55,773 nucleotides of DNA from Elsinoe ampelina (taxonomy: Eukaryota). Of this stretch, positions 30,796 through 34,500 are shown piece after piece; within the stretch, counting starts at the first letter, position 1; each line of letters starts with the position of its first letter. The stretch lies in contig ML992522.1 in assembly GCA_010093995.1 (NCBI GenBank), positions 62,001-117,773 of the forward strand. The letters run 5' to 3'. The position numbers were made by a program, and so were the translations under genes. A model generated the notes under the pieces. The model saw only the letters and a program-made list of their open reading frames with translations, was not told where the DNA came from and did no database searches.

Positions 30796-32237
30796 TCAAC
30801 TCGTCCACCTCCCGACCACACACAACCCCCTCGTCACCCCCCTCAACTCCTCCAACGCCCTCGCCACCGCCTCTCCTTGGCCGGCCTCGCTGGCGAACTC
30901 GACGAAGAAGATGTACCGCCACCTGCGCTCGGTGTTCACCCTGCCACCACCACCACCACCTCCAGCATCGCCTCCACTATCGCCTCCACTACCACCCCCA
31001 CTATCGCCTCCACCATCCACCACCCCTGTCACTCCCAAAGCCGAATCACCGTCTGGAGGAGCGAGCGCAGGCGTCGCCAAGCCAGAAGAAGAAGAAGGAG
31101 GAGAAGAAGAAGAAGGATCAGGGTCAGGACGCGTGTACATGCTACTCAGACTCAGGCCTTGTTTCTTGAAAACAGCCAGAGCGTCAGCGAGCGCGCCCGG
31201 GCTGCCGTGGACGGGGACGCGGAAGTGGAGGAGGGTTTTGTGGCGCGCTCGGGCAGGGGTCGTCGGTGGAGAGGCTGGAGATGGATCTGGTGCCGGAGGT
31301 GCATCTGGGTCGGACACGGGGTGGGGTTTGGAACCGTCCTTCTTCTTTCGGGCGAGGACGAAGAATCGAGTCTGGTTGTCGGATCTGTCTTCGATGTTTT
31401 CTCGGAGGATGTCTAGGTTGTTGAGCTCGGCGGCTAGTTTGCTGGCGATGGCGGCTTCGGTGGTTGTGCCGTCTGGGCTTTTGGCTACGAGGGAAGCGAT
31501 CTTGGTGGCGGCTGCTGAGGTTGAGGAGCTGTCGACTTTTTCTGCGTTGGGGAGGGATGAGAGAAGGCCGGTGCATTGTCCCCATGCTTGGGGGTGGGAG
31601 TGGATGACTGTTAGCTTTTGCAGGTCTGGTGCGGGCTGGGAGCGGATTTGTGGTGTTCCGCCTTCGGTCGTGTTGGTCTGTCCGTCACGAAAGCCGGAGG
31701 CGTTGATCTTGAAAGGTCTGCTTGAGGATGATGAGGAGGTGGTTGTGGTAGGGACGAGGCGTCCCATTAAGCAGTGGTGGACGTCGACGAACTGCTCCCC
31801 AATGATGGTGACATCTGGATGAGAGGTCGGTAGGGAGGCGAAGAGGTCGAGAGTAGGCAAGACGGCGCCATTGGATGAGTTCTCGAAAGGGACAACACCG
31901 TACTCCGATTCTCCGTCCTGGACCGATGTGAAGACTGATGCGATGCTTGGAGACGGAACCAGTGTAGCAATAGATGATTGCGGGAATTGTTGCAGGGCAG
32001 CCTGAATCAGTGAGCTTCAGTGTGACAGGCCATGGTGTTCTTTCTTGTATGATGTCGGTCGAGAGGTAGCATCAGGGATGAGGGGCACAAGGGGATATCG
32101 ATGGTCAAACACACGCGGTGCAAGCGACTGGAAACCCTCATTCAACACAGCAGGTAGATTTTTCAATTGATTTCAAAACAACTCACCTGATGTGTATATG
32201 TTGCCTTGGGTCCAAGGTATGCTACTCTGTCTGCCAT
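30796..32237 (-). CDS. PHA2: Prephenate dehydratase (PDT plus ACT domain)
   Basis: Exon 1 at 32237-32187 (MADRVAYLGPKATYTHQ), intron 32002-32186, then YGVVPFENSSNGAV, HSHPQAWGQC, IEDRSDNQTRF, PGALADALAVFK..TRP..WRYIFFVEF. Confidence 0.92.
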
Positions 32238-32667
32238 AATTTCGGTGGCTCTATGGAAATAGTCGTCCTAGATGGTGGAAACTTTTGGTGCCATACTCTC
32301 GGCAAACGATTCAGAATGACGCTCAGGCAAGATAGACCGGAAAAGGGAAGGATTGACACACGAGAGTGTGGTTGATGTCCGTACTTGTGCGAGTGCCACA
32401 AAATATGGAAGTCCGACGTCGCTCGAACTTGTATGTGGGGCTGGCTCAAGCATGTTGAATGAAGCGTGTGGGAACAGTCACACAGGCACGGATGTACAGA
32501 AGTGGATAGCAAGGCAACACATAGAGGTCATACACGAGCGCAAAGTAAATGGCAATTTGGACATCGTGCCCGGACTAGACTACCCCTTCGTCGCCACCAA
32601 AATGTCCATGAGCCAACTCCTCGTCTACCGCCACTTCCGTCAGCGACGCACGCCGACCACCAGACCG

Positions 32668-33083
32668 CTAGTAGCTCATGGTCATGGAGTCACGCAACGG
32701 ACTCGGCGCAAACGGCGGGTGCGTGAGGGAGGATCGCCTGCGCTGCATCGCTATCTCGGTTGGTGTCATGCCGCATGGCTGCTCGTACCAGGGGATCTGA
32801 GCCGATCAGCATGAGTCCACACATCCACGTAGTCGGTAATGCTTACCTGTTCAGGCTGGTTGTCGATCATGGCAATACTTTCACCAAGTGTGGCGGCTTC
32901 CTTTTCGGCGGCTGCTTCAGCAGCGGTCTCCTCCTCGGCGACAGCTCTGACGGCCACATGAACCGTGGCGGGGACAGGAGTGATTTGCTCCTGGGGAAGG
33001 CGGGGTGCAGAATTCTCCTCTTTGACTGAAGGAGAAGGCTTGTCGATTACTTGCACCTCACCATGGGTTGTGGGGGCCGATTG
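32668..33083 (-). other. In-frame stop-codon readthrough extension of eRF1 spanning a 3'UTR intron (32797-32846)
   Basis: TGA CAA TCG context. 79 open codons up to CAG|GTAAGC, a 50-nt intron with CTGAT branch point and CTCAG acceptor, then 42 more open codons to TAG at 32670-32668. Confidence 0.7.
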
Positions 33084-34397
33084 TCAATCGTCGTCATAGA
33101 ACTCATCATCGTCGTCGAAATCGGCCAACTGTTCAAAATTGACTTTGTAGCGCAGGATAGCTCCGATACCACCGAATCCCTTGACGAACTGGTTGCCTTC
33201 GGAGGATCGATCAGAGACGAATTCCAGAGTTGCACCAAAGTCACGGTACTTCTCGGCCAACCATTCGAGGAACGGCATCTGGTCAACCACTTCCATCTCC
33301 TGACCAGTGTCCTTGTCCATGAACATGGAGCGATCCTGTTCTTGCAGCTTGCTAGTGTGGAGGACGACCTCGCTACCGGCAGCAGATTTGAGTGTCCAGC
33401 GGGTGATTTCCAAGTTCTCAAAGACGATGAGGGTCTCGCAAGCGCCGAGCTCAAGGGCCTTGAGCGTATCCTCAATACCGTAGCAGACACGACCGCTATC
33501 CTGAGAAATCTCCTCAAAATACTTGTTGATGAGCTTCTTCTCCTGGATGAACTTGACATTGCTCAGAGTCTCCGATGACAATTCGATGGCTTGGTTGAAG
33601 CCATTCTCACCTCCGTAGGAGACATCGACGACCTTGATGACCTTTGATTGCAGACGCTGATCGAACATGTCGGACATGTTGAGATCGTTTTTGAAATCGG
33701 CACTGCCGGCGAGGATCAAGCCAGCCACGTTGACCTTGTCGTTTGTGATGAAGTTCTGAACAGCCACTTCAGCGACTTTGCGGACGTAGTTATGACGCTT
33801 CTCTTCGCGAAGACGGGCGAAACGCAGAGCTGATTGCCCACCGCGACCGTGCTTCTTTGGTAGATCGACGGTGAACTTCTGCTTGATATCGCGAGTGTTG
33901 CCGCTCAATGTGCCGAACAGAGCGCCGTTACCGTCCATGATGATGAAGCCAAAAGACTGATCGGACTCAAGGAGCTCACTGAGGGCTTCAGTGTGAAACT
34001 TGTTGTCGCACAGGTACAGCGAGGTGTTGATTGGCTTGAAGGGCTCGAAATCGATATTGATCTTCCTCTCTTTTCCTTCGGCGGTGATGACTTCACCACA
34101 GTAGACGACCAGGCCATTGGGAGGAACCTTGGAGTACAACTTGAGACGCTGCTGAGTCGAAGTGATGGCGGACAGGACAGACTGTCTGTTGACGCGTGAT
34201 TTAATGTTGGAGGCAGTGCCGAATTCTTCAGCCAACATTTTGGAGACACGCGAGATCTGATCCTTGGGAGGGATGATGAGAGAAATCATGCTTGTACCGT
34301 TTCCGCGAGCCTGCTCCAGGCGTTTGATGAGCTTTTTGATCTTCCATATTTCGATATTCTTCTCTGCCTCTCCTCCTTGAGGCTGCGCGCTACTCAT
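33084..34397 (-). CDS. SUP45: Eukaryotic peptide chain release factor 1 (eRF1)
   Basis: Intronless 437 aa ORF with GTSMISL, TASNIKS, YLCDNKF, GRGGQS, GFGGIG and an acidic C-terminus; stop TGA. Confidence 0.98.
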
Positions 34398-34423: not shown

Positions 34424-34500
34424 CTGGTTGTCAGATCTGAGAAGTTCTGGTCAGCAAATGCCGGTGGTGATGAAGAGGGCAGTATGAGACGAACATTTAC
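34424..34500 (-). other. Probable 5'UTR intron of eRF1
   Basis: On the minus strand GTAAAT...CTGAC-AACCAG, ending 26 nt before the ATG. Confidence 0.45.

What the first reader, a model, noticed from the sequence alone, without database searches (positions are those of the whole stretch)
32668..33086. eRF1 stop codon looks leaky: in-frame extension crosses a 3'UTR intron (readthrough/NMD autoregulation)
Seen: the eRF1 CDS ends GAC GAT TGA CAA TCG. The same frame stays open for 79 codons (QSAPTTHGEVQVIDK...AEEETAAEAAAEKEAA...NQPEQ) up to a strong phase-0 donor CAG|GTAAGC. After a 50-nt intron (32846-32797) it continues for 42 codons (IPWYEQPCGMTPTEIAMQRRRSSLTHPPFAPSPLRDSMTMSY) to TAG. A run of 121 stop-free codons has a chance of roughly 0.3% under uniform base use, somewhat higher at this GC content. 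The junction lies 237 nt past the stop. Known: UGA-C and stop-CAA contexts favour readthrough; an exon junction more than about 50 nt downstream of a stop triggers NMD; readthrough plus NMD autoregulation of eRF1 has been reported in Neurospora crassa and for plant eRF1-1. Inference: plentiful eRF1 gives clean termination and decay of the mRNA, while scarce eRF1 lets ribosomes cross the junction and stabilise it. The principle is not new, but this instance would be missed by standard annotation.
Basis: partly seen in the sequence, partly recalled or inferred. Interest (0 to 1): 0.85.

Follow-up and report, generated by a model that had tools for sequence, protein, structure and literature searches.

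The report
Leaky eRF1 stop with spliced 3'UTR intron
The gene for the protein that ends translation (eRF1) in this fungus has a leaky-looking stop codon followed by a conserved in-frame extension that crosses a genuinely spliced intron, the layout already shown in Neurospora and plants to let eRF1 control its own level.

Summary
Observation confirmed. The eRF1 CDS (34397-33084, minus strand) ends TGA CAATCG. The frame then runs 79 codons, a 50-nt GT..AG intron (32846-32797), 42 codons and TAG.

RNA-derived contigs from 3 studies skip exactly those 50 nt and run about 130 nt past the TAG.

Comparison makes it convincing:
- Among 31 distinct related fungal eRF1 loci, 31 use TGA and 28 have C at +4.
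- The post-stop frame is open for a median of 83 codons, against 16 and 6 in the other frames.
- The extension ends in a peptide conserved at amino-acid level. In this window it is in frame only after the intron is removed.

Relatives also carry a hairpin 11 nt after the stop and a longer stem-loop. Models of both fail to detect them in this window.

Best reading: a new member of the known eRF1 readthrough-plus-NMD circuit (Neurospora crassa, plant eRF1-1). Readthrough and decay themselves were not measured. An Elsinoe fawcettii annotation assigns this extension to the neighbouring gene.

The parts
33084..34397 (-). eRF1 coding sequence, single exon, 437 codons plus TGA
   Evidence: Pfam eRF1_1, eRF1_2 and eRF1_3 at E 6e-29 to 2e-48.
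34437..34494 (-). 58-nt 5'UTR intron (GTTCGT..CAG)
   Evidence: Joint 34436->34495 in contigs of X1, X5 and X10; sequence.
33078..33086 (-). Leaky-type stop context TGA CAATCG
   Evidence: It matches stop-CARYYA at 5 of 6 positions and plant eRF1-1 TGACAATCA at 8 of 9 (PMC5397192). Among 31 distinct related loci, 31 use TGA and 28 have C at +4.
33053..33077 (-). Eroded counterpart of the family's stop-proximal hairpin
   Evidence: Folds at -6.1 to -7.8 kcal/mol with z -0.4. Family model R1 gives only 10.1 bits, E 9.9, at the stop.
32999..33062 (-). Thermodynamically stable extended stem-loop (10-bp outer stem with one A.C mismatch, 8-bp inner stem)
   Evidence: -24.2 kcal/mol, z -1.9. It uses the segment homologous to the relatives' GCGAGG arm, but family model R2 does not detect it.
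32847..33083 (-). Readthrough extension, part 1 (79 codons)
   Evidence: On one RNA contig with the CDS. 74% identical over 66 aa to residues 3-68 of an Elsinoe fawcettii gene model.
32797..32846 (-). 50-nt 3'UTR intron, phase 0, GTAAGC..CAG
   Evidence: Skipped in contigs of X1, X5 and X10 (three studies) and, as a net 50 nt, in relative X6.
32668..32796 (-). Readthrough extension, part 2 (42 codons) plus TAG
   Evidence: 90% identical over 31 aa to E. fawcettii P0001 residues 69-99, directly following residues 3-68, so the same junction and frame are used.
32671..32706 (-). Conserved C-terminal tail of the extension (PSPLRDSMTMSY)
   Evidence: It lies in frame 2 of the unspliced DNA and in frame 0 only after the intron is removed. 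Shared with L004, L012, L014, L018, L021, L030, L035, L038, L054 and L068, with synonymous codon-family switches. The ORF piece holding it ranks 2 of 2248 in the window against a 7-locus motif HMM (8.6 bits, E 0.18).
32535..32667 (-). 3'UTR remaining after the second stop, up to the ends of the RNA contigs
   Evidence: The X1 contig ends at 32540 and the X10 contig at 32535. This is only a weak hint of the poly(A) site.

Best explanation
This is the eRF1 gene of a filamentous ascomycete, close to Elsinoe (Dothideomycetes). It carries the readthrough-plus-NMD ('RT-NMD') 3'UTR known from Neurospora crassa erf1 and plant eRF1-1.

Shown here:
- The stop is TGA followed by CAATCG.
- A 50-nt intron 237 nt downstream is spliced.
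- The eRF1 frame stays open across the junction for 121 codons.
- The extension is conserved as protein-coding sequence in relatives.

Inferred mechanism. When eRF1 is plentiful, ribosomes terminate at TGA and the exon-junction complex stays on the mRNA 237 nt downstream. UPF1-dependent decay then removes the message. When eRF1 is scarce, a near-cognate tRNA decodes TGA and the ribosome translates across the junction, strips the complex and stops at TAG. That stop leaves about 130 nt of intron-free 3'UTR, so the message is stabilised and more eRF1 is made.

In relatives, readthrough is probably boosted by a hairpin 11 nt after the stop. In this window that hairpin is eroded, so the CAATCG context is likely to carry more of the load.

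The extension ends in a conserved peptide. It is therefore more than a spacer, but what the peptide does is unknown.
For: (1) Splicing and continuity. Single contigs of 1886, 1901 and 1750 nt in X1, X10 and X5 (three studies) cover the CDS, TGA, extension, joint 32796->32847 and TAG with 0 other letters.

(2) Context. TGACAATCG against plant eRF1-1 TGACAATCA and stop-CARYYA (PMC5397192).

(3) Relatives. From 80 metagenome loci, 31 distinct Pezizomycotina-type sequences including the window were taken. TGA occurs in 31 of 31 and C at +4 in 28 of 31. Frame 0 after the stop is open for a median of 83 codons, against 16 and 6 in the other frames, and is the longest frame in 28 of 29 loci with more than 450 nt downstream. 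The other 48 loci use mixed stops (TAA 20, TAG 11, TGA 17) with a median of 24.5 open codons.

(4) Coding signature. pN/pS of the extension is 0.36-0.95 in 12 pairs, and lower than in both shifted frames in 11 of 12. The tail RPSPLRSVMTAS-type motif varies by synonymous codon-family switches: Ser TCG/AGC/AGT, Arg CGN/AGA, Leu CTN/TTG.

(5) In the window the tail is in frame with eRF1 only after the RNA-confirmed 50 nt are removed.

(6) Geometry recurs. Class A: predicted introns lie inside the extension and the frame is kept in L002, L004, L005, L006, L007, L011 and L017. L011's spliced 120-codon prediction matches the intron-less contig L010 (119 codons, same ...IGAAA end). Class B: the next stop lies 15-36 nt before a GT donor (L012, L014, L022/23/26, L028, L030, L035, L054, L065, L068). 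Arabidopsis eRF1-1 has its next stop less than 25 nt before the intron.

(7) Relative X6 has 5 substitutions in the extension. Three are synonymous third-position changes, none creates a stop, and the listed indels fall only after the TAG.

(8) The E. fawcettii gene model P0001 reads the same frame across the same junction.

(9) EJC-dependent NMD through spliced 3'UTR introns exists in N. crassa (passages in PMC10578600 and PMC6173133).
Against: - No measurement of readthrough, NMD or eRF1 dependence exists for this organism.
- The runs are contigs, so isoform ratios, poly(A) sites and rare variants are invisible.
- In this window the open frame alone has p about 0.02.
- The tail-motif HMM match is weak on its own: 8.6 bits, E 0.18, rank 2 of 2248.
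- The stop-proximal hairpin that marks 30 related loci is not detected here (10.1 bits, E 9.9; z -0.4), nor is the family's extended stem-loop. Any structural boost to readthrough may therefore be weak here.
- The context departs from CARYYA at its sixth position (G, not A).
- The pN/pS alignments were guided by the frame-0 protein and the pairs share ancestry, which favours frame 0.
- Most introns in the other loci are my sequence-only predictions.
- In L021 the only candidate 3'UTR intron lies 129 nt after the next stop, which would not fit the model if it is real.
- Whether this fungus has EJC and UPF genes could not be checked, because no genome is held.
Confidence: 0.72

Rival explanations
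1. The point of readthrough is the protein, not the mRNA. A minor C-terminally extended eRF1 isoform, with a conserved tail of RPSPLRSVMTAS type, has its own function, such as a degron, a binding site, or a nascent peptide acting at the second stop. NMD coupling would then be secondary. This is compatible with the best explanation rather than exclusive of it.
For: The tail is conserved at amino-acid level with synonymous codon-family switches in 11 distinct sequences including the window: WIN, L004, L012, L014, L018, L021, L030, L035, L038, L054 and L068. A related R[ST]xLRxxxxV end follows predicted introns in L002, L006 and L017. pN/pS is below 1 in 12 of 12 pairs. In plants, by contrast, the extensions are reported as not conserved and the extended protein as inactive in termination assays (PMC5397192, passage).
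Against: No Pfam family is found in 5 extension peptides. There is no peroxisomal-type C-terminus (the window's extension ends ...MSY). Outside the two ends the extension evolves fast: 35% amino-acid identity between the window and L004, against 89% for eRF1. Nothing shows that the isoform accumulates.
Confidence: 0.35
2. The 3'UTR intron makes the mRNA an NMD target, but the stop is not leaky. The open frame would be chance, or a by-product of GC-rich composition.
For: 2.0% of composition-preserving shuffles give 121 open codons. The window lacks the family hairpin.
Against: Frame 0 is the longest frame in 28 of 29 related loci (median 83 codons, against 16 and 6). TGA occurs in 31 of 31 and C at +4 in 28 of 31. 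The conserved tail is in frame only after splicing. Substitutions follow a coding pattern.
Confidence: 0.05
3. The extension ORF belongs to the downstream prephenate dehydratase gene as its 5' exons, as in the Elsinoe fawcettii gene model P0001, or it is an independent small ORF.
For: P0001, named 'Prephenate dehydratase-like protein', starts inside the extension and reads it in this frame across this intron.
Against: The window has no ATG in the extension before codon 72 (...ESIAMI...); P0001's start Met corresponds to V-I here. Conservation and the RNA elements in relatives begin at the eRF1 stop itself. The tail is in frame with the eRF1 stop in every locus where it was found. RNA contigs join the extension to the eRF1 CDS, and no listed joint links it to the dehydratase exons, whose contigs start at or below 32353.
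Confidence: 0.03
4. The extended protein is made by alternative splicing that removes the TGA, as in fungal cryptic peroxisomal targeting, rather than by readthrough.
For: 13 related loci have an intron that ends 2 nt before the TGA, so an alternative acceptor could in principle bypass the stop in those lineages.
Against: The window has no intron near its stop, and all three RNA contigs retain the TGA. The universal TGA-C and the hairpin 11 nt downstream in relatives are features typical of readthrough. Contigs cannot exclude rare isoforms.
Confidence: 0.04

Closest known systems
Neurospora crassa erf1: autoregulation by readthrough and 3'UTR-intron NMD (Kurilla et al. 2020, FEBS Lett 594:3504; title seen in reference lists; text not held)
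   Same: A fungal eRF1 with a leaky stop and a spliced 3'UTR intron, the layout named in that title. EJC-dependent NMD via spliced 3'UTR introns is documented for N. crassa (PMC10578600 and PMC6173133 passages).
   Different: A different class (the window is close to Elsinoe, Dothideomycetes; N. crassa is a Sordariomycete). Nothing has been tested functionally here. I could not see whether that paper reports the hairpin, the stem-loop or the conserved tail. From memory only, its abstract proposes similar circuits in many fungi.
Plant eRF1-1 RT-NMD 3'UTR (Nyiko et al. 2017, NAR, PMC5397192; passages read)
   Same: TGACAATCA against TGACAATCG here. An intron more than 50 nt after the stop (130 nt in Arabidopsis, 237 nt here). 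The next stop is in a non-NMD position. The model is that a readthrough ribosome strips the EJC.
   Different: In Arabidopsis the next stop lies less than 25 nt upstream of the intron, whereas here the frame crosses the junction and ends 126 nt beyond it. Plant extensions are reported as not conserved and motif-free, whereas the fungal extension ends in a conserved peptide. Plants keep a second eRF1 paralogue with an ordinary 3'UTR.
3' RNA structures that stimulate stop-codon readthrough in viruses and Drosophila (reviewed in PMC13517186 and PMC13170385; search listing only. Firth et al. 2011 is recalled, not seen)
   Same: Relatives carry a 5-8 bp hairpin starting 11 nt after the TGA, with covariation (CG:11, UA:3, UG:3 at the closing pair). 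Two lineages have different stem sequences at the same place.
   Different: This is a cellular housekeeping gene. The 3' arm can alternatively pair with a downstream segment to form a longer stem-loop. In this window the proximal hairpin is eroded.
Bacterial RF2 (prfB) autoregulation by +1 frameshifting at an in-frame UGA (mentioned in PMC5397192; details recalled)
   Same: A release factor senses its own abundance through competition at its cognate stop codon in its own mRNA.
   Different: There recoding is needed to make the factor. Here recoding is thought to protect the mRNA from decay, and the normal product is made by termination.

Membership tests
RT-NMD 3'UTR of eRF1 (definition in PMC5397192) | The 3'UTR carries an NMD-inducing element: a spliced intron 50 nt or more downstream of the main stop | tested here: met
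   Joint 32796->32847, 237 nt after the TGA, in contigs of three studies. The spliced 3'UTR is about 499 nt.
RT-NMD 3'UTR of eRF1 (definition in PMC5397192) | The main stop is in a readthrough context (stop-CARYYA, C at +4) | tested here: met
   TGA CAATCG matches 5 of 6 positions and has C at +4. This is a sequence criterion only.
RT-NMD 3'UTR of eRF1 (definition in PMC5397192) | [quoted passage not shown] | tested here: met
   The TAG starts 126 nt downstream of the junction. The contigs end 128-133 nt after it, with no further joint listed.
RT-NMD 3'UTR of eRF1 (definition in PMC5397192) | Measured readthrough above a +4 mutant control, with the mRNA raised in NMD-deficient cells and lowered by excess eRF1 | not testable with these tools
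   No raw RNA reads, ribosome profiling or mutants for this organism were on hand (one search listed contigs only for the holders).
RT-NMD 3'UTR of eRF1 (definition in PMC5397192) | The layout is conserved in orthologues | tested here: met
   31 distinct loci; E. fawcettii.
Readthrough stimulated by a 3' RNA structure | A stable structure starting about 8-12 nt after the stop, supported by covariation | tested here: not met
   Met in relatives: model R1 hits 30 loci at the stop (E 0.0032 or better, 17 of them seeds), and 87.4% of cells are paired against 37-50% when slid. In the window: 10.1 bits, E 9.9; -7.8 kcal/mol, z -0.4.
Functional readthrough isoform with a targeting signal (fungal peroxisomal PTS1 type) | A recognisable signal or domain in the extension | tested here: not met
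   No Pfam family in 5 extension peptides. The window's extension ends ...MSY, not an SKL-type tripeptide (read directly).
Selenocysteine recoding of UGA | A SECIS element in the 3'UTR | tested here: not met
   No Rfam match at E 1 or better in 32400-33300.

The most novel reading that the evidence does not exclude
In Pezizomycotina the eRF1 readthrough extension may be a built device rather than a passive EJC-clearing spacer. It begins with an RNA toggle: one arm (GCGAGG) can pair either upstream, forming a hairpin 11 nt after the stop, or downstream, forming a 60-nt stem-loop. It ends in a peptide kept at amino-acid level across lineages, whether the intron lies before it, after it, or 100 nt upstream. 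One possibility is that the tail acts while still attached to the ribosome at the second stop, which itself needs eRF1. Another is that it marks the extended eRF1 for removal. Either would add a second sensing or clean-up layer to the circuit. I found no held paper describing the toggle or the peptide, but the key 2020 paper could not be read.
Probability: 0.3. Interest if true: 0.65.

Novelty: new member of a known kind. Interest (0 to 1): 0.42.

Why it matters
eRF1 dosage sets how faithfully every stop codon in the cell is read, so how eRF1 is controlled matters broadly. This locus shows the readthrough-plus-decay layout, established in Neurospora and seed plants, in a Dothideomycete close to the citrus-scab genus Elsinoe.

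The comparison with 30 other fungal loci indicates that the layout is old and under selection across filamentous ascomycetes.

There is a practical consequence for annotation. Gene finders see the extension as coding and can attach it to the wrong gene, as in the E. fawcettii 'prephenate dehydratase-like' model.

The conserved hairpin, the alternative stem-loop and the conserved tail peptide are concrete handles for experiments on how readthrough is tuned.

Tried and rejected
- Own genome: none is held, so UPF and EJC genes and codon usage could not be checked.
- RNA holders: no listed holder is on record as RNA. The holders are contigs whose RNA origin I infer from two missing introns. Parts without cover (32354-32534) are not used as evidence.
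- Earlier findings of this scan: two word searches returned only viral, phage and algal cases, none bearing on this locus.
- Kurilla 2020 and Zhang & Sachs 2015 are not held. PMC9661723 does not mention them. PMC5009743 and PMC9118705 held nothing relevant.
- The MAFFT alignment A1 of the post-stop region put no gaps in the loop and misaligned the 3' arms, so I used an equal-length subset (A2) and covariance models instead.
- RNAalifold on 12 sequences returned only the proximal hairpin, with the window broken in 4 of 6 pairs.
- R2 did not find the window's stem-loop, so its homology to the family element rests only on the shared GAGG arm and on thermodynamics.
- The intron scan is an ad-hoc regular expression. 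It gave many alternative acceptors and none for L003, L008, L010, L012, L013, L024, L038, L068 and L075. L001, L016, L018, L021, L071 and L074 remain unresolved.
- Rfam: no match.
- Pfam on the extensions: no match.
- Selenocysteine, an independent ORF and a neighbour-gene exon were considered and rejected (see rival explanations).
- The similarity I noticed between the tail and the Neurospora arginine attenuator peptide comes from memory only and was not tested.
Full report
**1. What is in the sequence**

On the minus strand, a single-exon ORF runs from ATG 34397-34395 to TGA 33086-33084. It encodes a 437-aa protein with Pfam eRF1_1, eRF1_2 and eRF1_3 domains (E 6e-29, 2e-48 and 2e-35). It ends ...GAC GAT TGA CAA TCG.

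The same frame continues for 79 codons (33083-32847) to CAG|GTAAGC. A 50-nt segment at 32846-32797 has GT..AG ends and a CTGAT branch-like site 9 nt before the acceptor. After it the frame runs 42 more codons to TAG at 32670-32668. Without splicing, the frame would run 105 codons to a TGA.

**2. Is the intron real?**

The search for public runs listed 13 holders from 5 studies. I laid four of them. In X1, X10 and X5, which come from three studies, single contigs of 1886, 1901 and 1750 nt match the window with 0 other letters. Each carries two joints:
- 32796->32847, which skips 50 nt (CT..AC on the + strand, so GT..AG on the gene's strand);
- 34436->34495, which skips 58 nt in the 5'UTR.

Because the window's DNA holds both segments and the contigs lack both, the contigs derive from spliced RNA, even though the runs are only guessed to be RNA.

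The X1 and X10 contigs run on to 32540 and 32535, which is 128-133 nt past the TAG. The X5 contig ends at 32673. A relative (X6, organism B) has the equivalent joint: it skips 51 nt with one letter between, a net 50. Its 5 listed substitutions inside the extension comprise 3 synonymous third-position changes and 2 replacements, with no new stop. Its two listed indels (at 32620 and 32646) lie after the TAG.

**3. Chance**

In 20,000 dinucleotide-preserving shuffles of the 499-nt spliced 3'UTR, 2.0% have at least 121 open codons and 8.3% have at least 79. The other two frames have 6 and 5 stops in the same 363 nt.

**4. Relatives**

A scan of metagenome contigs with the eRF1 protein returned 80 loci (590 stretches matched a pattern, 537 were confirmed, and the best 80 were kept). 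I located the C-terminus and stop in each with tblastn.

Thirty-six sequences, including the window, have the ...[F/Y]YDD-type tail. I dropped three AT-rich or aberrant ones (L055, L057, L076). Two more are duplicates (L024 = L021, L036 = L035). That leaves 31 distinct sequences. Among them:
- TGA is the stop in 31 of 31.
- The next base is C in 28 of 31. The three exceptions, L022, L023 and L026, are near-identical to one another.
- The unspliced post-stop frame is open for a median of 83 codons, against 16 and 6 in the other two frames.
- It is the longest of the three frames in 28 of the 29 loci with more than 450 nt downstream.

The remaining 48 loci (other eukaryotes) use TAA 20 times, TAG 11 times and TGA 17 times, with a median of 24.5 open codons.

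In 13 loci an intron ends 2 nt before the TGA (...YD G|gt...ag|AT TGA C).

**5. The extension is translated sequence**

The last codons of the extension are conserved:

| Loci | Extension ends in |
|---|---|
| L012, L014, L030, L035, L038, L068 | RPSPLRSVMTAS-type |
| L054 | MPSPQRSVQMAA |
| L018, L021 | RPSPLR(H/N)VQSVN..SAH |
| L004 | SSPLRASITASY |
| window | PSPLRDSMTMSY |

The codons differ by synonymous family switches: Ser TCG/AGC/AGT, Arg CGN/AGA, Leu CTT/CTC/CTA/CTG/TTG. This is the signature of selection on the amino acids.

In the window, the motif lies in frame 2 of the genomic DNA relative to the TGA. It comes into frame 0 only when the RNA-confirmed 50 nt are removed.

An HMM built from seven loci ranks the window's ORF piece 32671-32805 second among 2248 stop-to-stop pieces of the whole window. 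The score itself is weak (8.6 bits, E 0.18). The link to the family is carried mainly by L004, which shares RRRSSL....P....SPLR.S.T.SY with the window.

Over whole extensions, pN/pS is 0.36-0.95 in 12 pairs. It is lower than in both shifted frames in 11 of 12; L035/L068 is the exception. Two caveats apply: the alignments were guided by protein, and the pairs are not independent.

**6. Geometry of intron and second stop**

Two arrangements recur in my sequence-based predictions.

(a) The intron lies inside the extension and the frame is kept:
- window (RNA-confirmed);
- L004 (81 nt, phase 0);
- L011 (58 nt), whose spliced 120-codon extension matches the intron-less contig L010 of a relative (119 codons, same ...IGAAA end);
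- L002, L006 and L017 (phase 1, directly before G|R[ST]xLRxxxxV*);
- L005 and L007 (54-55 nt, both giving 93 codons).

(b) The second stop lies 15-36 nt upstream of a GT donor: L012, L014, L030, L035, L054, L068, L065, L028 and L022/23/26. L012, L030 and L035 share the sequence that follows the predicted acceptor.

Arrangement (b) is the Arabidopsis eRF1-1 arrangement, where the next stop lies less than 25 nt upstream of the intron (PMC5397192).

Ten loci stayed unresolved. In L021 the only candidate intron lies 129 nt after the second stop, which would not fit the model.

**7.

*Proximal hairpin.* In all 28 distinct non-window sequences folded, the minimum-energy structure has a hairpin starting about 11 nt after the stop (median -11.8 kcal/mol, median z -1.8). 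It is usually CCTCG(C/T)-loop-(G/A)CGAGG. L005/L007 have GGCTC/GAGCC and L075 has GGCTCC/GGAGCC at the same place, while encoding different peptides.

On a 17-sequence alignment, 87.4% of cells pair, against 37-50% when the partner is slid. The closing pair is CG:11, UA:3, UG:3, and 0 of 500 shuffles reach the covariation score. The Leu codon in the 5' arm is always CTC and the Glu codon in the 3' arm is always GAG, which argues for constraint at the nucleotide level.

A covariance model of stop plus hairpin (R1) hits 30 loci exactly at the eRF1 stop (E 0.0032 or better; 17 are seeds and 13 are not). It finds only chance-level matches elsewhere.

*Extended stem-loop.* The 3' arm can instead pair with a segment about 50 nt downstream, just after a conserved CTGACGG, enclosing an inner CAGAnn/nnTCTG helix. 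On 12 sequences, 75% of cells pair against 38-45% when slid. Double changes occur at three positions, for example AU:5/CG:4 and GC:3/UA:2/AU:1/CG:1. One of 500 shuffles reaches the covariation score. Model R2 (7 seeds) finds 10 further loci at the expected place, with E from 3e-8 to 0.13.

*In the window both elements are eroded.*
- R1 gives 10.1 bits, E 9.9, covering only the stop context.
- The local fold is -6 to -8 kcal/mol, z -0.4.
- R2 finds nothing at the site.
- A stable stem-loop does form at 33062-32999, using the homologous GGTGAGG arm (-24.2 kcal/mol, z -1.9). Its homology to the family element is not established.

**8. Who is it?**

A protein search with the 42-aa second part of the extension returned one hit: an NCBI protein named 'Prephenate dehydratase-like protein [Elsinoe fawcettii]'. 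Its residues 3-68 match extension codons 14-79 (74% identity), and residues 69-99 match the next 31 codons (90%). The match is contiguous across the same junction.

So a gene finder scored this frame, with this intron, as coding, and then fused it to the neighbouring gene. The window's downstream neighbour on the same strand (30796-32016) is the homologous dehydratase.

In the window the model's start Met corresponds to V-I, and there is no ATG in the extension before codon 72. The RNA contigs tie the extension to eRF1 and list no joint into the dehydratase exons. I therefore read that model as a mis-annotation.

The window thus comes from Elsinoe or a close relative (Dothideomycetes; lineage).

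**9. Mechanism**

Shown: a leaky-type context, a spliced 3'UTR intron more than 50 nt downstream, a frame crossing the junction, a coding-type conservation pattern, and a second stop in a harmless position.

Inferred by analogy:
- termination at TGA leaves the junction complex in place and the mRNA is degraded by NMD;
- readthrough strips the complex and stabilises the mRNA;
- because eRF1 competes with near-cognate tRNA at its own stop, the loop is negative feedback.

The basis for the analogy is the plant experiments (PMC5397192, passages read), the title of the N. crassa paper, and statements that spliced 3'UTR introns trigger EJC-dependent NMD in N. crassa.

**10. Novelty and score**

The principle and a fungal example are published, so this is a new member of a known kind. 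It is well supported by sequence and RNA evidence, and untested functionally.

I found three features in no held paper: the family-wide hairpin, the alternative stem-loop, and the conserved tail peptide. I could not read the key 2020 paper or its supplements, so I do not claim they are new. They raise the interest somewhat and define clear experiments.

Noticed in passing
34437-34494 (-): A 58-nt intron in the eRF1 5'UTR (GTTCGT..CAG, CTGAC branch-like site) is spliced out in contigs of X1, X5 and X10.
   Followed up: partly
L003, L006, L012, L013, L014, L022, L023, L026, L028, L038, L065, L071, L074 (around the eRF1 stop): In 13 related loci an intron of about 49-66 nt ends just 2 nt before the TGA (...YD G|gt..ag|AT TGA C). 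The leaky stop and its hairpin therefore sit at the very start of the last exon. The window lacks this intron.
   Followed up: partly
L040, L049, L051, L058, L062, L069, L072, L078: A second, unidentified eukaryotic lineage has eRF1 ending ...(A/D/E)(Y/F)F. It also uses TGA, followed by C in 7 of 8 loci, with 25-42 open codons after the stop in those 7. These are mostly short contigs of about 1.5 kb.
   Followed up: no
window 30796-32353 (-) and protein P0001: The Elsinoe fawcettii protein named 'Prephenate dehydratase-like protein' begins with 99 residues that correspond to the eRF1 readthrough extension of this window. This is probably a gene-model fusion of the eRF1 3'UTR with the neighbouring gene.
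   Followed up: yes
L018:3290-3330 and L021:4245-4285 (just after the second stop): A perfect 9-bp inverted repeat (GAGCGGCTG ... CAGCCGCTC) lies within 10 nt after the extension's TAG in both loci. Its function is unknown.
   Followed up: no
window 33070-33075, 33055-33060 and 32999-33006 (-): In the window, both possible partners of the GTGAGG arm (the upstream CCCCAC and the downstream CACCCCGCC) carry C where relatives have T, opposite the arm's A. The same mismatch therefore appears in both alternative helices. This is unexplained.
   Followed up: partly
L002, L004, L006, L010, L011, L013, L016, L021, L071, L074, about 54-69 nt after the stop: An invariant CTGACGG (read as Leu-Thr-Ala, always with the codons CTG ACG) and an upstream CCAGA (Pro always CCA) form the inner helix of the extended stem-loop. 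This is codon-level invariance that points to RNA constraint.
   Followed up: partly
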